Below, one piece after another: positions 1 to 7,516 of a stretch of 8,144 nucleotides of DNA. The DNA lies in the IMG/VR virus record IMGVR_UViG_2695420485_000006, one strand, 5' to 3'. This DNA comes from a virus. Lineage: Duplodnaviria > Heunggongvirae > Uroviricota > Caudoviricetes. The notes below the pieces were generated by a model that saw only the letters and a list, made by a program, of their open reading frames with translations, searched no databases and was not told where the DNA came from. A program made the position numbers and the translations under genes. How positions within the stretch are numbered: position 1 is the stretch's first letter; every line of letters begins with the position of its first letter.

Positions 1-98
1 CCCAGGCGAACCAGCACCTCCGCACACGGCTGTGCCACATCACGGATATCCCCGGCCCGGGCATCATGCGTGCCCTGCAGATACTGGATTTTTGCCAT
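1..98 (-). CDS. Hypothetical protein, 5' part only (gene runs off the window start); first gene downstream of the major capsid gene
   Basis: ATG at 98..96 (minus strand), open to the window edge (MAKIQYLQGTHDARAGDIRDVAQPCAEVLVRLG...). No convincing Shine-Dalgarno; placement is by position after the capsid gene. Function unknown. Confidence 0.3.
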   Translation of the reverse strand, partial: MAKIQYLQGTHDARAGDIRDVAQPCAEVLVRL

Positions 99-142
99 CT
101 GTTACTGCGGGACGCTCTCACCTCCCGCCCTCCTCATCAGAC

Positions 143-2080
143 TCAGCCGCCGGACGCACTGCCGTAGTTCACACCGGTGATCACAGCCACCGCCGCAGTA
201 CGGCGACGACGCCAGTTGATCCAGCGCTCCGCACGGATGGCCACGCTGCCGGTCTGGAACATGGAAACCAGCTCCACCGGCGACGGTGTGGTGCTGTCGC
301 CGCCCGGCTCAGACTGCATTTCCAGTGACGCTTCACGGGACATATCCACTGCCACACCGCCGTCATCCGCCAGATAAATATCCGGTGCATTCACCAGTAC
401 CAGCTGGTCACCCACATACTGGGAGACAATCACCGGAAGCCCCTGAAAGATCCCGCCCAGCAGGGTCATGTCCGGATATTCCTTCTGACCCAGCGCATTT
501 TTACGCATGGACAGCGCCAGGGCATTGGTGCTGGACATCAGCCAGACCGCACCAGTGGGCTGCAGATTTGCCGTCACAAACTGGCCAAACGCGGCCTCGG
601 CATCCGCATCCGGGTTACCGGTTGATGCCGTGCCCTTCACATCATGGGTGATGGACGCCGGGGAGACATCTGCCACTGCAGCTTTTTTCGGGTCCACAAA
701 GTCTGTGTCCAGACGCGCCACCACCGCTTCTGCCAGCGCATTACGGACCAGCGCATCAGCTGCCGGACTGGAAAAACGGATCAATTCTTCCGTCAGTACC
801 GCAATGGCCGACACCTTCGCATGACTGAAGGTGATGGATTCAAAATCAAACTTCGTCAGGGGTTTTGCCTTACCCTCCCCCACCCAGCCGGCAGCACCGC
901 CGGACACCTGGGCATGCACGCGGATATTGAACGGCACCTGACGAAGAGCAGGGATCCCGCCCTGACCAAATCGCCCGATAATGGTCTGAGGACGCAGGTA
1001 ATCAATAAAGTCCTGTGCGTATTCCTGATATTCAGACAGGCTGCCTGCCCACTGTGGGTCCGTGGTGGTCCCTGCCCCCACCGCCGATTTCAGGACATGA
1101 TGCAGACGGCTGTCATCCGGATACTGACGACGGGCCACTTCCAGGGCTTCAGAGCGGACACCTTTAGCCGCGGCCAGTGATTTGGCAAAGCGGGCGAAAC
1201 CAATCCCCTTCTCCAGTTTCTGCTCAACACGGATCACCGGCGCTGAAGCCACCGTGGCCACATTCCCGTTACCGGCCTGTTTCACCGGCTGTGCCGTGGC
1301 GGCCTTACTGGTTTCCAGTTCACGCAGACGCTTCAGGTGCGCATCCACCTGACGGATTTCCGCTGCGGTGTTGTCGTAGTGCTCTTCCTCTTCCACATCC
1401 AGTGTGCGGCCTTCCTCTGCGGCTTTGTTCATGATCTCCTCAAGGGAGGCTGCCAGCGCCGCACGCTTGTTTTCAAAACTTTTAATCTGTTCACCAGTAT
1501 TCATTGCTGACTTTTCCTTATGAAAAGAGGTTATTGACTGTGCCGAAGCGCCGGCAGAAGATGCGATTTTCACCACCGGTTTCCGGTTGCCGGACGCGGC
1601 AGAAAACGGGCGGTCGAAATATTTAATGGTCCGGATGGTGCATTCCGCATTCGCGGGCACGGTGACGGCAGACACCTCCATCAGCTCCCAGCGCAGAAAA
1701 TGCAGTCCGCCTCCGTCCAGATAAGTGTATTCATGGGGCCGGAAGCCCACAGAAAGCCCCCTGACCAGCCCGGTCTTAATGGCAGCCCAGGCCTCATCCA
1801 GCCGGGCTGCCATCTGGGAGGGCATCCCCGGCTCCGGCTTCACCAGCATTGCCGTGATTTCCAGCCCTTCCCTGACCCGACGCACCGTACACTGGCCTAC
1901 AGGGCGGGAATGGTCATGCTGCCAGAGAAACGGGATCGTACTGCCAAACTCCGCCCCCTCCGGCTCCAGGATGTCACCATCCCGATCCGGAGAAGGCGTT
2001 GACGCAATCCCGGTGATCACCCGTTCATCCTCGCTGAAGGATTTCACCGTCAGCAGGGAACAGGCCCGTTTAAGAGTCAC
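143..2080 (-). CDS. Fused prohead protease / scaffold (delta-like) / HK97-fold major capsid protein
   Basis: 645-codon ORF. GTG start at 2080 preceded by AGGAGG with a 5-nt spacer. N-terminal ~180 aa carries HK97-family prohead protease signatures (GIASTP..DRDGD, LWQHD, LSVGF, EVSAVTVPAN). The middle is a charged, coiled-coil-like segment (EEIMNKAAEEGRTLDVEEEEHYDNTAAEIRQVDAHLKRLRELE). The C-terminal ~380 aa matches the HK97-fold capsid pattern (TEELIRFSSPAADALVRNALAEAVVARLDTDFVDP; LLGGIFQGLPVIVSQYVGDQLVLVNAPDIYLADDGGVAVDMS). Assignment from remembered family signatures. Confidence 0.9.
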   Translation of the reverse strand: MTLKRACSLLTVKSFSEDERVITGIASTPSPDRDGDILEPEGAEFGSTIPFLWQHDHSRPVGQCTVRRVREGLEITAMLVKPEPGMPSQMAARLDEAWAAIKTGLVRGLSVGFRPHEYTYLDGGGLHFLRWELMEVSAVTVPANAECTIRTIKYFDRPFSAASGNRKPVVKIASSAGASAQSITSFHKEKSAMNTGEQIKSFENKRAALAASLEEIMNKAAEEGRTLDVEEEEHYDNTAAEIRQVDAHLKRLRELETSKAATAQPVKQAGNGNVATVASAPVIRVEQKLEKGIGFARFAKSLAAAKGVRSEALEVARRQYPDDSRLHHVLKSAVGAGTTTDPQWAGSLSEYQEYAQDFIDYLRPQTIIGRFGQGGIPALRQVPFNIRVHAQVSGGAAGWVGEGKAKPLTKFDFESITFSHAKVSAIAVLTEELIRFSSPAADALVRNALAEAVVARLDTDFVDPKKAAVADVSPASITHDVKGTASTGNPDADAEAAFGQFVTANLQPTGAVWLMSSTNALALSMRKNALGQKEYPDMTLLGGIFQGLPVIVSQYVGDQLVLVNAPDIYLADDGGVAVDMSREASLEMQSEPGGDSTTPSPVELVSMFQTGSVAIRAERWINWRRRRTAAVAVITGVNYGSASGG

Positions 2081-2092
2081 ATCAGCCTCCTG

Positions 2093-2118
2093 AAAATAAA
2101 AAAACCGCCGCAGCGGTT
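2093..2118 (-). terminator. Weak intrinsic terminator-like hairpin between terminase large subunit and capsid gene
   Basis: Minus-strand RNA reads AACCGC-UGCG-GCGGUU (6-bp stem, 4-nt loop) followed by a U-rich tract (UUUUUUAUUUU), sitting between the TerL stop (2144) and the capsid start (2080). Confidence 0.35.
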
Positions 2119-2143
2119 CATGATGGTTACAGGGTGAGCAGGG

Positions 2144-3805
2144 TTATATGAAAAAAACCTCATACGCTTTCTTTTTCGGTTCCGGATTCAGGGACATCAG
2201 GGACACCGCATTGAAGAGCGCCATCAGCGGGTCAATTTTTCCCCGTCCGCTGGCCTGTTTGGTGATAAGAATGGCGTTACCTTTAGGCTCCACCCGGGCA
2301 TTGCCAACGCACCAGGCCATCAGTGGCTGACCACCATGCACCAGTACTCCCTCAGCCAGTTTGCGCTCGGTGGTTTTTATGGCCCCGCCCAGCTTCCAGC
2401 CCTGGCTTATCCCCACAACAATTCCGTCGGGGATCCCGGCTTCCGCCAGTGAATCCAGAATCTGCCCCACACCTGACGGGTCAATACCGATATGCTCCAG
2501 TAACTCAGCCTCATGAATACGACGCACATACTCCGCCACTTCCGCCGTGTCATCCCCGACCCGACGGACAATCGTCATGTCTCCACAGGCCACAAAATCC
2601 TGAAAACGGGATGCCTCACTCTTCCGTCTGACCACCGCGGTTTCATGCGCCCAGGCATGGCCCCAGCCCAGCCATTCGCGGGTTTCCCTGTCACGGCCAA
2701 TCACGTACATTCCCAGCAGATCATCCAGGCCCCCGCCGTCAATCCCCACCGTCACCACATCAGCGCGCTGCAGGATATCGTCCAGGCTGACGCGCCTGCC
2801 CTGCTGCTCCCAGAAATCCGCACCCACCCAGCGGTCAGAACGCAGGGCAAGACCAATTTCCACATTGGCATGTTTTGACATGAAGCCACGAAATGCTTCC
2901 TCACCAGCCTCCCGGGCTTTACGGTACTCCCGGTACAGAAAAGCCTCATCCACCGAATAACCGAGATTCGGGTTAACCATGGCGAGGTTTTCCATCAGCA
3001 GGTGAGCCCCGCTTTCCACCATTTCAGGAGGATGCTCAAAAATCACCGGCAGAAAGTGCGGATCATGAATTTTGCCGTCACGGACATCCCGGGCATACTG
3101 CAGTTTCTGTCTGAACACCCCGGCGGGCGGTTCATTCGACTGGGTGGTCGTATACACCACAAACCCTTCCGGACGGGAGGCAAGCCCGCCGATGGCTTCA
3201 CGTAGCATGTCTTCCGCCTTGTACTGCTTGCCAAACAGCCACAGTTCATCAATCAGTGTCCCCACGGACTTGATACCGGACACCGTATTCGGATCGGCTG
3301 CCACCACCTTCAGGGTGGTGTCCGTCACCCGATGGGTGATGGTCCGGATATGTGTCTGCACCTGACAGAGGTCATCCAGATCATCGTCCCGTCGTACCAT
3401 ATCCCTGGCAGGGTTGAAGGCGTTAGCCGCCACCTCCACGGTCGGGGCCAGAATCGTGTAACCCGCCGCCTGCCGCCAGTTCAGTAACAGTGCAGTCATC
3501 ATGATCCCCGCGGCCAGCGTGGACTTCGAGTTTTTCTTGGGGATAAGGATAAAAACTTCCTTGATATGGCGTACACCGGTCTGCGCATCGTAGGAGCCAA
3601 ACAGGGCCGCCACCAGGTCAAACACCCACGGTGCACAGGACTCCCCGAACGTAGGGCTACCAGGTGCATCCACAATCCGCAGTTGTTTAAAAATCGCCAG
3701 GGCATGTGCGGCCTCGTCCGGATAAATCGGATCCGGAATAATCGACAGCCCCTTTTGCAGGCGCTCTGCCCAGTCCGGGCAGGCTGTGCTCCATACAGGT
3801 ATCAT
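2144..3805 (-). CDS. Terminase large subunit (Terminase_1-like ATPase/nuclease)
   Basis: 553-aa ORF. ATG at 3805 overlaps the TerS stop (ATGA). Walker-A-like PKKNSKST around residues 89-96, acidic nuclease-type region VGIDGGGLDDLLG, and a C-terminus (KIDPLMALFNAV) typical of this terminase family, all from memory of the family pattern. Confidence 0.9.
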   Translation of the reverse strand: MIPVWSTACPDWAERLQKGLSIIPDPIYPDEAAHALAIFKQLRIVDAPGSPTFGESCAPWVFDLVAALFGSYDAQTGVRHIKEVFILIPKKNSKSTLAAGIMMTALLLNWRQAAGYTILAPTVEVAANAFNPARDMVRRDDDLDDLCQVQTHIRTITHRVTDTTLKVVAADPNTVSGIKSVGTLIDELWLFGKQYKAEDMLREAIGGLASRPEGFVVYTTTQSNEPPAGVFRQKLQYARDVRDGKIHDPHFLPVIFEHPPEMVESGAHLLMENLAMVNPNLGYSVDEAFLYREYRKAREAGEEAFRGFMSKHANVEIGLALRSDRWVGADFWEQQGRRVSLDDILQRADVVTVGIDGGGLDDLLGMYVIGRDRETREWLGWGHAWAHETAVVRRKSEASRFQDFVACGDMTIVRRVGDDTAEVAEYVRRIHEAELLEHIGIDPSGVGQILDSLAEAGIPDGIVVGISQGWKLGGAIKTTERKLAEGVLVHGGQPLMAWCVGNARVEPKGNAILITKQASGRGKIDPLMALFNAVSLMSLNPEPKKKAYEVFFI

Positions 3806-4365
3806 CCGTTGCCCTCATTATCGTTATTCACCACCAGTCGGGGGGGCGGTGGCACCGCAAAACGGTTAGCCGCTTTTTTCGCGGCATCACCTTTTGCCGA
3901 TTTTTTACCGGCATCGCCTTTTTTATGGTGCGTGAACTGCGCCAGACGCCAGGCCGCATCCAGTGCCAGTTTCGGATCAATGCAGAGGTTTTCCACCAGG
4001 ATCCGCCCCATGGCTTTCACCGGATCGGGAAGACCATCCTCCATATATTCAATACCAGGAGACATCACCGCGGACGGTGGCATCTCCGGATTGTTTTCGT
4101 CCGGCTGTGGTATTGCAGCCACCTCACGGCGACGGGGTTTATCCTCCTGCTCTGATTTTTTCTGCCGGTAAACAGGAACCTCATCCACCTCCACCGTCTC
4201 GCACTGTTTACGGGCTATAAACGCGAGCACCTCCGGATCTTTTGCCAGCTGCGAGCCTTTAACCCTGGCGGTCTTCGCCGAATAACCGGCGGCAATGGCT
4301 GACGCTGTTTTGTTTTTCCCGGACATGAGCGCCAGCGCAAATTTTCGTTTTTGCGTTGTCAGCAC
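3802..4365 (-). CDS. Terminase small subunit (P27/HK97-type)
   Basis: 187-aa ORF. GTG start at 4365 preceded by GGGAGGAGG. N-terminal KRKFALALMSGKNKTASAIAAGYSAKTARVKGSQLAKDPEVLAFI matches the conserved HTH region of phage terminase small subunits. Stop overlaps the TerL start. Confidence 0.85.
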   Translation of the reverse strand: MLTTQKRKFALALMSGKNKTASAIAAGYSAKTARVKGSQLAKDPEVLAFIARKQCETVEVDEVPVYRQKKSEQEDKPRRREVAAIPQPDENNPEMPPSAVMSPGIEYMEDGLPDPVKAMGRILVENLCIDPKLALDAAWRLAQFTHHKKGDAGKKSAKGDAAKKAANRFAVPPPPRLVVNNDNEGNG

Positions 4366-4437
4366 AGCCTCCTCCCGGGTCCAGAACGCACTCAGCCGGG
4401 TATGGTTCAGCCCATTTTTCCCGGCGTCTCATGCCGC

Positions 4438-4565
4438 AAATGTTAACTGCTGCCTGGTTAACATTTGCTGAAAAAGCCAGTTAACATTTTTTTCGCACAA
4501 CAAACTGAATAATAAAGATAAAAACCGCAAAAATGCCCGGGCAGCCAGTTAACATGTTAACTGCC
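4438..4565. repeat. Array of GTTAAC-core sites (putative TerS recognition elements, cosB-like)
   Basis: GTTAAC at 4442-4447, 4457-4462, 4480-4485, 4548-4553 and 4556-4561. The 12-mer GCCAGTTAACAT is repeated at 4476-4487 and 4544-4555. A perfect 18-bp palindrome CAGTTAACATGTTAACTG lies at 4546-4563. An A/T-rich block (about 4490-4530) sits between the sites. Confidence 0.5.
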
Positions 4566-4590
4566 CTGAAACAGGAATTTTTTCTCTGCA

Positions 4591-4655
4591 TGAGACGGGG
4601 GGCGGTGTCCGGGGCGATCGTTTTTTTCGCCGGATGATCCCCCCCCCGGGGCGGA
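4591..4655. other. GC-rich block with homopolymer runs; candidate cos nicking region (cosN-like)
   Basis: G6 run at 4597-4602, T7 at 4621-4627, C9 at 4639-4647. Repeated CGGGGCG(G)AT motifs. Lies between the HNH stop (4656) and the GTTAAC array. Confidence 0.35.
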
Positions 4656-5021
4656 TCACAGTCCGATGATATCGTCTGCCCTGCCATGACCTCCGGACAC
4701 CTCCGGCAGCGTCGGGTCCGGCATACCACTCGCCGTTTCACTGACTGACTTCTGGCGATGGCATTCGGTACAGAGCGTCCAGAGATTCGTCTCCTCATTA
4801 CCACCACCGAACTGAAGTGCAATGCGGTGATCGAGTTCACTGTCACAGAGGTCAACCACACGACCACAGAGACAGCACTGCCCGGCATCCCTGAGCCAGA
4901 TATGACGCTTGAGGGAAACACGTGCACTGCCACTGACACGACGCTGTTCCCCCTTCAGAATATTCACCCGTCGGGTGTTCAGAGTTTTGATTCTGCTCTG
5001 GAGTGTACGAAGCTCAGCCAT
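4656..5021 (-). CDS. HNH endonuclease (phage packaging-associated, HK97 gp74-like)
   Basis: 121-aa ORF with an HNH/zinc-finger core CCLCGR..DSELDHRIALQFGGGNEETNLWTLCTECHRQK. GGGGA Shine-Dalgarno 6 nt before the ATG. Sits immediately upstream of the cos-like region and terminase genes. Confidence 0.85.
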   Translation of the reverse strand: MAELRTLQSRIKTLNTRRVNILKGEQRRVSGSARVSLKRHIWLRDAGQCCLCGRVVDLCDSELDHRIALQFGGGNEETNLWTLCTECHRQKSVSETASGMPDPTLPEVSGGHGRADDIIGL

Positions 5022-5062
5022 GTAAAATCCCCGTCATATGGCAATCAGTAAAGGAAATAAAT

Positions 5063-5263
5063 ATGTCATCGAAAAACCGGACCCGCAGAACCACAACCCG
5101 CAATATCCGTTTCCCCAATCACATGATTGAACAGATCAACATCGCCCTTGAGCATAAAGGGTCCAGTAACTTTTCAGCGTGGGTTATTGAAGCCTGCAGG
5201 AGAAGGCTGGCAACAGATGCAACGCATCTGCGTACGGCCAGCATGACAAATAACGAGAAATGA
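5063..5263 (+). CDS. Small basic protein with predicted ribbon-helix-helix (Arc/MetJ/CopG-like) pattern; possibly YlcI/YnfO-like (DUF3950)
   Basis: 66-aa ORF. AGGAA Shine-Dalgarno 7 nt before the ATG at 5063; the track's longer ORF from 5003 lacks an SD and overlaps the HNH start. Sequence RNIRFPNHMIEQINIALEHKGSSNFSAWVIEACRRRL resembles the Arc beta-strand plus two-helix pattern. It is the only plus-strand gene in the window. Confidence 0.5.
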   Translation: MSSKNRTRRTTTRNIRFPNHMIEQINIALEHKGSSNFSAWVIEACRRRLATDATHLRTASMTNNEK

Positions 5264-5585
5264 ACGTTCGGTTTCTTCCACCATCGTACCGGACAGGCGA
5301 CTATGAGGGGACAACGCCGCGCTCCGTTAACGCGGTAAACCCCGGTGTGTATCGTTTTTGATTATCCCCGCACACTCGCGCAGAAGGAATTCCCCGTCGG
5401 GCTACGGTCATGGTTAATGCGGAAATACAGCGACGATACAGCGCATGATGTGTCAGGCTTGAATACCTTTATCCGTTAAAAGGGATATCAGTTAAGTTAT
5501 CCCGTGTAGGGTATAAGTCATTATCAAGCCCACCAGTAGATGGGCTTTGTAATGGAGAGCCGTTGTGAAAGTGGCTCTCAGACTG

Positions 5586-5789
5586 TCATTTTTTCCCTTT
5601 CTGTTTACCTGCCCACTGTTTTGCAATGTACAGGCAGTTATCGAAAATTCGGCCTTTTCTGCTGGCTTGTGAACAACGGCGGTAATGTTCCACCGCCATG
5701 TCAGCGCCAGTCATAGCCGCGTTTTGGTCGTATCCAAGCTTTATTAACTCGGTTGTTACATTTTTATGTATGAAATCAATCGGAGTCAT
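5586..5789 (-). CDS. Hypothetical small protein (67 aa), translationally coupled to the upstream Rha-like gene
   Basis: ATG at 5789 overlaps the stop of the 198-aa ORF (ATGA overlap at 5786-5789). Lys-rich C-terminus. No recognisable family. Confidence 0.45.
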   Translation of the reverse strand: MTPIDFIHKNVTTELIKLGYDQNAAMTGADMAVEHYRRCSQASRKGRIFDNCLYIAKQWAGKQKGKK

Positions 5790-6382
5790 GCTGGTTTACC
5801 ATCAGGGAAGTCCCCCATGTCACATAGCTTGAACTGAATAAGATCCTTCACAAGCTGCTCAGCCTTTTTAATGGCCTTCTTCTCTTTCTTCCGACGAGTC
5901 ATGAGAGCGCTACCTGCTTGACCGTGCATTTCAAATGAGAACTTCTCAGCAGCCGCGACACGGTTTTGCATTTCGCTGATTGCCATATCGGTCAGGCCAG
6001 AGAAATCGAGAAGGTTAATCTCCTTCCCACCCTCAAGCTCAGTCATGTGGTCATACACCTGCGCCTGAAGCTCATAGCTGTAGCTCATTGCCATGAGGCA
6101 AGCTTCACGCTTGGGAAAATTGCAAATATCCCTCTCCACAACACCACCTGTTCCGTTGATATAGGTATCAGTTGCAAAAAATTTTGCAGCTGCATCCCCG
6201 AGGACCTTGGGTACTTTCTTCATGAAACTGCGGTGTTCGAGTTTGCGATATTTCTTACAGGGGAACGCAAGCCCCTCCGCCTCCGCTTTGGATTTCCGAT
6301 CAGCATTAATGTAATCCACCATCTCAAGACTGCTCATGGTCGGGTATTCGCCAGAAGGAAGAACGGTTAATGATTTGTTCAT
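5786..6382 (-). CDS. Putative phage regulatory protein, Rha-like (antirepressor-type); assignment tentative
   Basis: 198-aa ORF. AGGAA Shine-Dalgarno 9 nt before the ATG at 6382. N-terminal half (TMSSLEMVDYIN ... LEHRSFMKKV ... EACLMAMSYSYELQAQVYDHMTELE) resembles the Rha pattern (TMSSxEIAxxTGKxHxNVMRDI ... LLxMGFTGxxAxxFKxxYIxAFNxME), but with a ~15-aa insertion. Remembered consensus only. Confidence 0.55.
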   Translation of the reverse strand: MNKSLTVLPSGEYPTMSSLEMVDYINADRKSKAEAEGLAFPCKKYRKLEHRSFMKKVPKVLGDAAAKFFATDTYINGTGGVVERDICNFPKREACLMAMSYSYELQAQVYDHMTELEGGKEINLLDFSGLTDMAISEMQNRVAAAEKFSFEMHGQAGSALMTRRKKEKKAIKKAEQLVKDLIQFKLCDMGDFPDGKPA

Positions 6383-6527
6383 GTCGGTATTTCCTTTAGA
6401 AAGTTGAGCCTGTTCGCACAGAAAAACCGTCCCCGAGAGGTCCTCACCTATACGGCAGTTCTCAGGCTCAGCTTTCTGAAAGACTCGGGATTGTTACGCG
6501 CTGCGATACGCTGTGAAATTCAGATGT

Positions 6528-6584: not shown

Positions 6585-7022
6585 TTATTTCAGGCATTGC
6601 GTCCTGATGTATTCCTGCAGGTAGTTAACCTGCGCGGTTATCTTGTCGATTCCACCTCGGAGACGGTAATAATTGAGTTCAGCATCTGCTGTAAGTCCTG
6701 GGCTTTCTCCATCGCCCATGCTGCTGGCTCCGGTCGTTGACTTTGCACAGGTGGCGGAGACTTGCAGGCGCTTACGCCCAGCAGAAACATCAGCACGGAG
6801 ACTTTCGATAGTCGCATTAGCATCAGCAAGCTCCTTTGTGTATCTGGCGTCAAGTTCTGCTACATCACGTTGCCGCTTCTGCATATCAGCGATGATGGAT
6901 GTGGCTCTATCGCGCTGCTCTTTGTAGGCGATGGCGTTATCACGGTAATGATTAACAGCCCATGAAAGGCAGACGATGAGGCAGATGACCAGAACGTAGA
7001 TAATCGCGGTTACTCTGCTCAT
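6585..7022 (-). CDS. Rz: Rz-type i-spanin (inner-membrane spanin subunit)
   Basis: N-terminal transmembrane helix ([20 protein letters not shown]) followed by a charged coiled-coil periplasmic domain. ATG at 7022 overlaps the endolysin stop (ATGA); the track's alternative start at 7034 adds MGAT. Contains Rz1 embedded in the +1 frame. Confidence 0.8.
6638..6823 (-). CDS. Rz1: Rz1-type o-spanin (outer-membrane lipoprotein), embedded within Rz in another frame
   Basis: Embedded ORF with lipoprotein signal peptide and lipobox ([20 protein letters not shown]) and a short proline-rich mature part ([37 protein letters not shown]), resembling lambda Rz1 from memory. Exact start is uncertain: M at 6823 or 6817; the track ORF begins at 6853. 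Confidence 0.7.
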
Positions 7023-7516
7023 TGTTGCCCCCACAAACAGACTTCACGCTCAATCTCACGGCGAGTCATCAGCCCTTTCCATTGCTTACCGCCAGCGTAT
7101 GTCCAGCGCCGTAGCTGATCACATGCGCTTTTGATATCGCCCTGGTTTATTTTGCGAAGAAGCGTCGATGTTCTGAAATTGCCAGCGCCCACGTTGTAAA
7201 CGAACGAGTAAAGAGCGCCGCGCGTTGTTTCCGGTATATCGACTTTGATGTACGGGTTTATTTGTCTGGCGACCGTGGCAAGGTCTTTATTCAGGAGGGC
7301 TTTGCATTCTGCTTCGGTATACGTTTTACCGGGCATGATGTCTTTTCCGGTGTGTCCATGACATACAGTCCATACGCCAACGATATCTTCGTATGGTATG
7401 TAGCTGACACCTTCCAGGCCATCGTCACCACTCGGACCAGTGATGAGCACAGACGCTATGGCAACAGCCCCACCACCAATAGCAGCAGCAACGGCTTTTC
7501 GTAATGATGGAGGCAT
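7019..7516 (-). CDS. R: SAR endolysin (phage lysozyme, T4-lysozyme/GH24 family, R21-like)
   Basis: 165-aa ORF. N-terminal Gly/Ala-rich weakly hydrophobic signal-anchor-release segment ([21 protein letters not shown]) followed by a lysozyme catalytic region ([23 protein letters not shown]). Start overlaps the holin stop (TAATG). Confidence 0.9.

What the first reader, a model, noticed from the sequence alone, without database searches (positions are those of the whole stretch)
143..3805. Non-canonical head module: TerL is followed directly by a single 645-aa protease-scaffold-capsid fusion, with no portal gene between
HK97-like phages normally run TerL - portal - prohead protease - major capsid as separate genes. 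Here the terminase large subunit stop (2144) is followed after 63 bp by one ORF that combines an HK97-type prohead protease domain, a coiled-coil scaffold-like linker and an HK97-fold capsid domain. No portal-like ORF exists anywhere in the window. The portal must be encoded elsewhere, and the fused polyprotein implies self-processing during assembly.
Basis: partly seen in the sequence, partly recalled or inferred. Interest (0 to 1): 0.55.

Follow-up and report, generated by a model that had tools for sequence, protein, structure and literature searches.

The report
Known fused protease-capsid phage head gene
This is the ordinary, already-annotated head-gene block of a common family of E. coli prophages, in which the capsid-trimming protease and the capsid protein are one gene, the "missing" portal gene lies about 70 bases beyond the window edge, and a conserved second start site inside the gene probably also makes plain capsid protein.

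Summary
On the minus strand, TerL (3805-2144) is followed after 63 bp by one 645-aa ORF (2080-143). That ORF carries an HK97-type prohead protease domain, a helical scaffold-like region and an HK97-fold capsid domain. The window contains no portal gene.

The arrangement is not new. The window is about 95-98% identical to Stx-converting phages of the genus Pankowvirus (2851, 1717, Stx2a_WGPS8) and to prophages in 1255 of 5426 complete E. coli genomes. In those records the ORF is already annotated "major head protein/prohead protease". The portal is not "elsewhere": in the relatives it is the next large gene, starting about 70 bp beyond window position 1.

The order TerL, protease-capsid, small ORF, portal is conserved from Enterobacterales to Alpha- and Betaproteobacteria. 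It also holds in relatives whose protease and capsid genes are separate.

I add one point. The capsid gene's own ribosome-binding site and start codon (AAGGA at 1519-1515, ATG at 1504-1502, Met193) survive inside the fusion and appear to be under selection. So the gene probably makes two in-frame products, a protease-capsid fusion and plain capsid protein, as lambda C/Nu3 and herpesvirus UL26/UL26.5 do. This is inferred from sequence comparison and has not been shown experimentally. Self-processing is plausible but untested.

The parts
4656..5021 (-). HNH endonuclease gene (121 aa), upstream partner of the terminase genes in HK97-like cos phages
   Evidence: Pfam HNH 2e-6. Annotated as HNH endonuclease in relatives. 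Conserved upstream of TerS in enterobacterial loci.
3802..4365 (-). Terminase small subunit (187 aa). Its stop overlaps the TerL start (ATGA).
   Evidence: Pfam Terminase_2 1.4e-8; ORF list.
2144..3805 (-). Terminase large subunit (553 aa)
   Evidence: Pfam TerL_ATPase and TerL_nuclease. 23% identity to HK97 gp2, E = 9e-12.
2092..2119 (-). Intrinsic-terminator-like hairpin (GAACCGC-TGCG-GCGGTTT) plus T-run in the 63-bp gap, immediately upstream of the fusion gene's RBS
   Evidence: Pattern scan. A hairpin plus T-run is present at the same place, with different stem sequences, in Enterobacterales, Proteus, Phlomobacter and Candidimonas loci. Function not tested.
2086..2091 (-). Shine-Dalgarno AGGAGG for the full-length ORF (5-nt spacer to GTG 2080-2078)
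   Evidence: Sequence. A GGAGG-type SD occurs at the same position in most related loci.
143..2080 (-). Full-length protease / scaffold-like region / HK97-fold capsid fusion ORF (645 aa)
   Evidence: phrog_617 'major head protein' matched end to end (1.8e-257) and phrog_4523 'major head and protease protein'. Annotated 'major head protein/prohead protease' in Stx phages.
1649..2080 (-). Prohead serine protease domain (aa 1-144). Predicted catalytic His55 (codon 1918-1916) and Ser110 (codon 1753-1751).
1505..1648 (-). Disordered, hypervariable, indel-rich linker (aa 145-192) joining the protease to the capsid-gene part
   Evidence: pLDDT about 40. Most variable stretch of alignment A1.
1502..1519 (-). 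Internal translation initiation region: AAGGA (1519-1515), 10-nt spacer, ATG (1504-1502) = Met193
   Evidence: Sequence. SD core plus start codon conserved in 25 of 27 lineages, including the switches ATG to TTG (L021) and ATG to GTG (L024). It is the only alignment column with SD conservation of 80% or more. Least-structured about 1% and A-rich top 2% of the mRNA. Orthologous to the true start of unfused capsid genes.
143..1504 (-). Nested in-frame capsid ORF (453 aa: scaffold-like N-terminal region plus HK97 fold), predicted second product
   Evidence: Existence of the product is inferred, not shown.
1073..1504 (-). Delta-domain-like helical scaffold region (aa 193 to about 336): helical hairpin 195-262, further helices 293-331, flexible segments 267-283 and 335-348
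   Evidence: AF2 model. The end point is inferred from a weak alignment of TDPQWAGSL with HK97 SDADSAGSL just after the gp5 maturation cleavage site and from the low-pLDDT segment 335-348.
146..1072 (-). HK97-fold capsid shell domain (aa about 337-645), predicted mature capsid protein
   Evidence: Pfam Phage_capsid. Foldseek hits to Bxb1 (5.7e-15), HK97, D3, T5, GTA and cf-PICI capsids.
1..98 (-). 5' part of a small conserved ORF (MAKIQYLQGTHDARAGD...; about 73 aa in phage 2851) that sits between the capsid gene and the portal gene. It runs off the window edge. The portal start is predicted about 70 bp beyond position 1.
   Evidence: Sequence. ORF in L002 at 11877-12098 and portal at 9352-11931. 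phrog_829. This frame is conserved in 19 loci. Window 1-142 is 126/142 identical to phage 2851.

Best explanation
The window carries the late-operon head and packaging block of a lambdoid siphovirus prophage of the Pankowvirus (Stx phage 2851 / 1717) type. The order is holin, endolysin, spanin, accessory genes, HNH, TerS, TerL, protease-capsid fusion, small ORF, portal, connectors.

Shown:
- The 645-aa ORF is a genuine, conserved fusion of an HK97-gp4-type prohead serine protease (aa 1-144), a flexible linker (145-192), a delta-domain-like helical scaffold region (193 to about 336) and an HK97-fold shell domain (about 337-645).
- In close relatives the portal gene lies directly downstream, just outside the window.
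- The order TerL, protease, capsid, portal is characteristic of a whole lineage and also occurs where protease and capsid are separate genes.

Inferred:
- The fusion arose by loss of the stop codon between adjacent protease and capsid genes.
- The capsid gene's own RBS and start codon (Met193) were retained and remain functional. The gene would then yield two in-frame products: the full-length protease-scaffold-capsid protein from GTG 2080, and a 453-aa scaffold-capsid protein from ATG 1504.
- The two co-assemble around the portal. The fusion subunits carry the protease into the procapsid by covalent tether to the inward-facing N-terminal scaffold region.
- After assembly the protease removes itself, the linker and the scaffold region, with a predicted cut near aa 335-348. 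This leaves a shell protein of about 33 kDa.
- The ratio of the two initiation events would set the protease-to-capsid stoichiometry.
For: Identity and annotation:
- Megablast gives 95-96% identity to Stx phages, with the ORF annotated 'major head protein/prohead protease'.
- The portal, connector and tail genes lie downstream.
- The module occurs in 1255 of 5426 complete E. coli genomes.

Domains:
- Pfam and PHROGs.
- Alignment with HK97 gp4, including the catalytic His and Ser.
- Invariant H55, S110 and E135.

Lineage-wide order:
- tblastn mapping of 34 loci from Gamma-, Alpha- and Betaproteobacteria.
- An expressed polycistronic transcript with the same order in phage EVP-1 (PMC8156552).
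- Unfused relatives L038-L040 show TerL, a 209-aa protease, a 465-aa capsid protein, a 76-aa ORF and a 419-aa portal.

Internal start:
- Met193 is invariant directly after the most variable linker.
- AAGGA is kept 7-11 nt upstream although the encoded residues vary.
- It is the only column with SD conservation of 80% or more, and it ranks first for SD plus start codon. L021 has TTG with AAGGA upstream, and L024 has GTG with AAGGAGG upstream.
- The local mRNA is in the least-structured about 1% and the most A-rich about 2% of the gene across 25 loci.
- Stand-alone homologues start at the equivalent residue. The unfused junction reads TAA, 30 nt containing GAGGG, then ATG MNYAEQISAFETKRAA.
Against: - No protein-level data (virion mass spectrometry, N-terminal sequencing, ribosome profiling) were found for this family in the searchable literature. 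The two-product model and the cleavage positions therefore rest on sequence comparison alone.
- The anti-SD pairing energy of the internal site is only moderate (-5 to -6 kcal/mol, about the 13th percentile of in-frame positions).
- Two Snodgrassella loci lack the internal start, so the fusion can apparently work without it.
- Met to Leu or Val are also conservative substitutions, so the TTG and GTG cases are suggestive rather than proof.
- The real flank of this particular window was not available. The portal position is taken from relatives with 89-96% identity.
Confidence: 0.75

Rival explanations
1. Single-product polyprotein. Every capsid subunit is made as the full 645-aa fusion and carries its own protease. 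The internal SD and ATG are only a relic of the ancestral capsid start, or are conserved for protein or linker reasons.
For: - The full-length ORF has a strong AGGAGG/GGAGG SD in most lineages.
- Two Snodgrassella loci have the fusion without an internal start codon.
- Fused protease-capsid genes in actinobacteriophages are described simply as fusions (PMC5513430).
Against: - A relic would not keep SD spacing, a start codon (including ATG, GTG and TTG alternatives), low mRNA structure and A-richness across lineages that share only 35-50% protein identity, inside the most variable part of the protein.
- About 415 copies of a 36-kDa internal segment (protease, linker and scaffold) per T=7 procapsid would be an unusually heavy internal load compared with HK97. 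This point rests on my own estimate, not on a tool result.
Confidence: 0.2
2. Artefact. A frameshift or sequencing or assembly error merged separate protease and capsid genes in this window.
For: Unfused relatives exist in which a stop codon separates the two genes. A few singleton database entries show obviously aberrant read-through products, such as P0002 and P0003.
Against: The identical 644-648-aa architecture is present in a cluster with 9916 member sequences and in thousands of other clusters. It is present in most of the top 150 representatives of 50%-identity clusters, in 1255 complete E. coli genomes, and in independently sequenced phages.
Confidence: 0.01
3. Degraded prophage. The module has lost its portal gene and cannot make heads.
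For: No portal lies within the 8144 bases. In one relative (Stx2a_WGPS8) the portal is annotated as a pseudogene.
Against: - All ORFs in the window are intact.
- The left 142 bases match the capsid-to-portal spacer of phage 2851 (126/142).
- The window ends inside the conserved small ORF that precedes the portal in all relatives.
- Phage 2851 has an intact 859-aa portal.
Confidence: 0.03

Closest known systems
Head module of Stx-converting phages of the genus Pankowvirus (Enterobacteria phage 2851, Stx2 phage 1717, Stx2a_WGPS8) and related E. coli lambdoid prophages
   Same: 95-98% DNA identity over the module. Same genes, same order and same 645-aa fusion, already annotated 'major head protein/prohead protease'.
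   Different: Only point differences. The accessory genes between the lysis and packaging blocks differ (82% of the window is covered in the best phage hits).
Bacteriophage HK97 head module (gp1 TerS, gp2 TerL, gp3 portal, gp4 protease, gp5 capsid with delta domain)
   Same: Homologous TerL, portal and protease. Capsid of the same Pfam family and fold, with an N-terminal helical scaffold region that is part of the capsid protein. HNH-associated terminase.
   Different: - Here the portal follows the capsid gene instead of preceding the protease.
- Protease and capsid are one ORF.
- The scaffold-like region is longer (about 144 aa, against 103 aa in HK97).
- In the E. coli phages the portal carries a C-terminal extension of about 470 aa.
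'Major capsid and protease fusion protein' of actinobacteriophages (Arthrobacter clusters AM, AU and AN; Microbacterium cluster EE; Rhodococcus RRH1)
   Same: The same concept: capsid maturation protease and major capsid subunit encoded by one gene (PMC5513430; PMC6606914 and PMC9671004).
   Different: Different host phylum. No sequence relationship to this family was tested here, so the fusions may have arisen independently. Whether those fusions have internal starts was not examined.
Nested in-frame protease/scaffold genes: lambda C/Nu3 and herpesvirus UL26/UL26.5 (also reported for OsHV-1, PMC11565193)
   Same: A long product carrying the assemblin-fold protease, plus a more abundant N-terminally truncated in-frame product made from an internal start. 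The protease is delivered into the procapsid by being joined to the scaffold (established knowledge; OsHV-1 example).
   Different: Here the shared C-terminal part would be the scaffold region plus the capsid shell protein itself, not a free scaffold. The second product is inferred only from comparative sequence evidence.

Membership tests
Peptidase S78 / HK97 gp4-type prohead serine protease | Sequence match to the family profile above the curated threshold | tested here: met
   PF04586 32.7 bits against a cut-off of 21, aa 48-151. BLASTP against HK97 gp4 gives 29% identity, E = 2e-8.
Peptidase S78 / HK97 gp4-type prohead serine protease | Catalytic His and Ser at the positions of HK97 gp4 H65 and S114 (the identity of the catalytic residues comes from established knowledge of HK97 gp4) | tested here: met
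   H55 aligns with H65 (WQHD against FNHK). S110 aligns with S114 (GLSVGF against GMSVGF). Both are invariant in A3 and A4 and at least 90% conserved in A2.
Peptidase S78 / HK97 gp4-type prohead serine protease | Herpesvirus-assemblin-like fold | tested here: met
Peptidase S78 / HK97 gp4-type prohead serine protease | Proteolytic activity on the capsid precursor | not testable with these tools
   Needs expression of wild-type against H55A or S110A and SDS-PAGE or mass spectrometry.
HK97-fold major capsid protein (Pfam Phage_capsid PF05065) | Profile match above threshold and HK97 fold (A and P domains, spine helix, E-loop) | tested here: met
   PF05065 51.4 bits against a cut-off of 24.2. Foldseek probability 1.0 to Bxb1, HK97, D3, T5 and GTA capsid proteins. 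BLASTP against gp5 itself is not significant.
HK97-fold major capsid protein (Pfam Phage_capsid PF05065) | HK97-style isopeptide cross-link residues (gp5 K169, N356, E363) | not tested
   No residue-level structural superposition was available. This feature is not required for family membership.
Capsid protein with N-terminal scaffold (HK97 delta-domain type) | Helical N-terminal region preceding the shell fold, and no separate scaffold gene between protease and capsid | tested here: met
   Confident helices at 195-223, 229-262 and 293-331 before the shell fold. No other ORF lies between TerL and the capsid stop.
Capsid protein with N-terminal scaffold (HK97 delta-domain type) | Removal of the region by the prohead protease during maturation | not testable with these tools
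   The cut near aa 335-348 is predicted only from low pLDDT and a weak alignment to the HK97 mature N-terminus.
Canonical HK97-like head gene order (TerL, portal, protease, capsid) | Portal gene between TerL and the protease | tested here: not met
   A 63-bp gap with no ORF lies between TerL and the protease-capsid gene. The portal is downstream of the capsid gene in relatives.
Fused 'major head and protease' protein families (phrog_617, phrog_4523) | Full-length match to a profile built from fused proteins | tested here: met
   phrog_617 at 1.8e-257 with aa 1-639 against profile 7-626 of 626. phrog_4523 'major head and protease protein' at 6.2e-11.
Nested in-frame two-product assembly genes (lambda C/Nu3, herpes UL26/UL26.5 type) | Internal in-frame start codon with its own ribosome-binding site, conserved across relatives | tested here: met
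   (SD plus start codon in 25 of 27 lineages, unstructured A-rich mRNA, orthology to the start of unfused genes).
Nested in-frame two-product assembly genes (lambda C/Nu3, herpes UL26/UL26.5 type) | Two protein products actually made from the one ORF | not testable with these tools
   No proteomic or ribosome-profiling data were found in the searchable literature.

The most novel reading that the evidence does not exclude
The protease-capsid 'fusion' is really a two-product nested gene. Initiation at the upstream start gives a minority protease-scaffold-capsid subunit. Initiation at the conserved internal RBS and Met193 gives the bulk scaffold-capsid subunit. The protease would then be targeted to the procapsid interior by covalent attachment to a capsid subunit, rather than by a C-terminal targeting peptide as in HK97, and its copy number would be set at the level of translation. 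To my knowledge, and in the literature I could search, this has not been described for this very common enterobacterial prophage head module.
Probability: 0.6. Interest if true: 0.45.

Novelty: already known. Interest (0 to 1): 0.27.

Why it matters
As given, the finding matters little. It rediscovers an annotated head-gene layout carried by about a quarter of complete E. coli genomes, including Stx1, Stx2a and Stx2c phages. Its puzzle, the missing portal, comes from where the window was cut.

Two points have modest value.
- The order TerL, protease, capsid, portal is an old, lineage-wide alternative to the textbook HK97 order. It should not be read as evidence of rearrangement or decay when annotating prophages.
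- The conserved internal start gives a simple, testable answer to how a phage with a fused protease-capsid gene avoids packing one protease per capsid subunit. It extends the lambda C/Nu3 and herpesvirus UL26/UL26.5 strategy to the capsid protein itself.

Gene callers and databases currently record a single product named 'major capsid protein', which hides both the protease and the probable second product.

Tried and rejected
- BLASTP of the capsid half against HK97 gp5 was not significant. The relationship needed Pfam and fold comparison.
- A search of solved structures by sequence gave only a weak hit to the Bxb1 capsid (E = 0.0025) and nothing for the protease.
- My first attempt to compare the capsid half used a wrong frame.
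- The search for related loci with the diverse alignment A2 failed for lack of conserved stretches, so I used A1.
- Liu & Mushegian 2004 and Duda & Teschke 2019, the papers most likely to discuss protease gene displacement and fusions, are not held. Whether they mention this family could not be checked.
- Several literature searches found no protein-level data on this fusion.
- The simple anti-SD duplex energy was weakly discriminating on its own (about the 13th percentile). The column-wise conservation test was more informative.
- The overall count of terminator-like sites is no higher than in shuffled sequence. Only the position and conservation of the site between TerL and the fusion make it notable.
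- I considered and rejected a sequencing artefact and a portal-less degraded prophage (see the rival explanations).


Full report
**What is in the window**

All coding capacity relevant to the finding is on the minus strand. Read in the direction of transcription, the window holds:
- a P21-type holin (7722-7516), an endolysin (7516-7019) and an Rz spanin (7034-6585);
- two accessory genes;
- a plus-strand DUF3950 gene;
- an HNH endonuclease (5021-4656);
- TerS (4365-3802) and TerL (3805-2144);
- after 63 bp, a 645-aa ORF (2080-143).

The 645-aa ORF starts at GTG 2080, preceded by AGGAGG with a 5-nt spacer. It matches Peptidase_S78 (aa 48-151) and Phage_capsid (aa 386-635), both above Pfam's curated thresholds. 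tblastn with two portal proteins finds nothing in the window.

**It is a known, very common module**

Megablast against phage records gives 94-96% identity over 82% of the window to Stx-converting phages now classified as Pankowvirus (Stx2a_WGPS8, 1717, 2851 and others). In those records the ORF is annotated "major head protein/prohead protease" or "major capsid protein".

The TerL plus fusion segment occurs at 80% coverage or more in 1243 of 5426 complete E. coli genomes, with a median of two copies per positive genome and a best identity of 98.4%. The protein's closest cluster has 9916 member sequences. The 644-648-aa architecture is constant across Salmonella, Enterobacter, Klebsiella, Serratia, Pantoea, Kosakonia and others.

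An exhaustive search of 1.84 billion cluster representatives finds 1156 clusters at E < 1e-30. Most of the top 150 are full-length fusions of 630-680 aa at 38-54% identity. PHROGs has a family whose 626-position profile is matched end to end (phrog_617) and one named "major head and protease protein".

Fused protease-capsid genes are also described in the actinobacteriophage literature (PMC5513430; PMC6606914 and PMC9671004). A sequencing artefact is excluded.

**Where the portal is**

In phages 2851 and Stx2a_WGPS8 the gene after the fusion is a small ORF. It is followed by the portal (859 aa, Phage_portal domain at aa 54-382, E = 5.9e-81), then a gp6-like connector, a head completion protein and tail genes.

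In window coordinates the portal start falls about 70 bp to the left of position 1. Window 1-142 is 126/142 identical to that spacer in phage 2851. It contains the start (ATG at 98) of the small ORF that precedes the portal. "No portal in the window" is thus a consequence of where the window was cut.

I could not see the true flank of this particular genome, so this step rests on close relatives.

**The gene order is a lineage trait, independent of the fusion**

I fetched 34 loci from one-genome-per-species contigs and mapped HNH, TerS, TerL, the protease half, the capsid half, the portal and the connector by tblastn.

Every locus with enough flank has TerL, then protease-capsid, then portal. 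This includes Alphaproteobacteria (Chelativorans, a Rhodobacterales MAG) and Betaproteobacteria (Burkholderiaceae, Snodgrassella, Candidimonas).

A published metatranscriptome contig of the siphovirus EVP-1 shows the same order on one expressed polycistronic RNA (PMC8156552).

Relatives whose capsid protein is 52% identical but unfused (L038-L040) have TerL, a 209-aa S78 protease, a 465-aa capsid protein, a 76-aa ORF and a 419-aa portal. The displaced portal therefore does not depend on the fusion.

HK97 itself has TerS, TerL, portal, protease, capsid. The canonical-order membership test fails, although TerL, portal and protease are all homologous to HK97's.

**Anatomy of the fusion**

AlphaFold2 with a 56-sequence alignment (mean pLDDT 81) gives:
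- a beta-rich domain, aa 1-144 (pLDDT about 90);
- a disordered linker, aa 145-191 (pLDDT about 40);
- a long helical hairpin, aa 195-223 and 229-262 (pLDDT above 90);
- a flexible segment, aa 267-283;
- more helices, aa 293-331;
- a flexible segment, aa 335-348;
- an alpha/beta domain running to the C-terminus.

Foldseek places the C-terminal domain with HK97-fold capsid proteins: Bxb1 at 5.7e-15, plus HK97, D3, T5, GTA and cf-PICI.

The domain aligns with HK97 gp4 at 29% identity (E = 2e-8). His55 and Ser110 fall at the positions of gp4 His65 and Ser114. These residues, with Glu135, are invariant across fusions of only 34-54% identity and in HK97 gp4.

A weak alignment of TDPQWAGSL (aa about 340) with the SDADSAGSL that follows the HK97 gp5 maturation site, together with the low-confidence segment 335-348, suggests that the mature shell protein starts near there. 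That would give about 309 aa, or 33 kDa. This is a prediction only.

**A conserved internal start: probably two products**

Alignment of 16 enterobacterial fusions shows that the least conserved, indel-rich part is aa 171-192. It is followed immediately by an invariant Met193-Asn and a conserved EQIKSFExKRAAL.

In the DNA, AAGGA lies 10 nt upstream of that ATG. Across 27 lineages the evidence is as follows.
- An AAGGA-type or AAAGGA-type motif is kept 7-11 nt upstream of the codon, even though the encoded residues differ (KKG, IKG, TQG, KEK, QEV).
- Of about 650 alignment columns, this is the only one where an SD core at start-site spacing is present in at least 80% of sequences. It ranks first for SD plus start codon (0.70, against 0.40 for the next column).
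- In the two lineages without ATG, the codon is TTG with AAGGA upstream (L021) or GTG with AAGGAGG upstream (L024). Only two Snodgrassella loci lack a start codon.
- The 60-nt mRNA window centred on the codon is among the least structured about 1% of windows in the gene (median percentile 0.008). The upstream 20 nt are among the most A-rich about 2%, across 25 loci.
- Stand-alone capsid homologues begin at the equivalent residue: P0256 residue 1 aligns to query residue 193. In the unfused locus the junction reads protease-TAA, 30 nt containing GAGGG, then ATG-MNYAEQISAFETKRAA.

The simplest reading is that the fusion arose by loss of the stop codon between adjacent genes, and that the capsid gene's initiation region has stayed under selection.

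I therefore propose that the ORF gives both a 645-aa protease-scaffold-capsid protein and a 453-aa scaffold-capsid protein. The former would act as the vehicle that brings the protease into the procapsid. This is the logic of lambda C/Nu3 and herpesvirus UL26/UL26.5 (established knowledge; an OsHV-1 example is).

The full-length start also has a strong SD in most lineages, with ATG in most and GTG in the E. coli lineage. Both starts look real, and their ratio is unknown.

The caveats are these. The SD pairing energy is moderate. Met to Leu or Val are conservative changes in any case. I found no proteomic or ribosome-profiling data. I put this inference at roughly 0.6-0.7.

**Verdict**

The fusion and its three parts are real, and the order is non-canonical. 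However, the portal is simply the next large gene beyond the window edge, and the whole arrangement is already annotated and extremely common. A strict one-polyprotein model is probably incomplete.

Novelty: already known. Interest is low to moderate. The only element that might be new is the comparative evidence for a nested second product.

Noticed in passing
window 2092-2119 (minus strand): A GC-rich hairpin followed by a T-run sits in the 63-bp gap between TerL and the fusion gene, right before its Shine-Dalgarno. An equivalent hairpin plus T-run, with different stem sequences, occupies the same place in Enterobacterales, Proteus, Phlomobacter and Candidimonas loci. It could be a terminator read through by Q-modified polymerase, or an mRNA-stabilising or processing element. 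Its function is unknown.
   Followed up: partly
window 1-98 (minus strand); L002 11877-12098: The small ORF between the capsid and portal genes starts at ATG 98 (MAKIQYLQGTHDARAGD...) and runs off the window. This frame (about 73 aa, phrog_829) is conserved in 19 loci, including Snodgrassella. The alternative 61-aa frame annotated in RefSeq for Stx2a_WGPS8 is not conserved. No function is known. Its 3' end overlaps the portal start.
   Followed up: partly
L002 9352-11931 (phage 2851 portal, just outside the window): The portal is 859 aa, roughly twice the usual size. The Phage_portal domain covers aa 54-382. A C-terminal extension of about 470 aa follows, containing 3.3 tandem copies of a 162-bp (54-aa) repeat and a C-terminal part with weak similarity to tail-fibre or collagen-like proteins. 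In the unfused relative L038 this part is a separate 238-aa gene after a 419-aa portal, and in EVP-1 the portal is only 453 aa. It is therefore a second gene fusion in the same head module.
   Followed up: partly
proteins P0123 and P0134 (metagenomic representatives): Proteins of about 1090 aa combine an N-terminal AAA ATPase domain with the S78 protease and the HK97-fold capsid domain (47-53% identical to the window protein over the fusion part). I did not check whether these are real triple fusions or gene-calling read-throughs.
   Followed up: no
window 4366-4655: A 290-bp non-coding gap lies between the HNH endonuclease gene and TerS. In HK97-like phages the HNH gene and the terminase genes flank the cos site, so this is the likely cos region. 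Not tested.
   Followed up: no
window 6638-6853 (minus strand, inside Rz 6585-7034): An ORF embedded in another frame of Rz encodes a lipobox-like sequence (LLGVSAC) followed by a proline-rich stretch. This is the expected Rz1 o-spanin, and relatives annotate an embedded 'Rz-like spanin' here.
   Followed up: no
window 5003-5263 (plus strand): A DUF3950 gene (Pfam 6.5e-20) lies on the strand opposite to the whole late operon, next to the start of the HNH gene. The same is annotated in the Stx phages. Its function is unknown.
   Followed up: no
window 5300-6400 compared with the phage records: The accessory genes between the lysis cassette and the HNH gene differ from those of the closest Stx2 phages. 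Here there is a 198-aa Ant-like or regulator-like protein and a 67-aa protein, whereas 2851 has KilA-N and a small protein. This explains why only 82% of the window is covered in the best hits, and it marks a mosaic joint.
   Followed up: no
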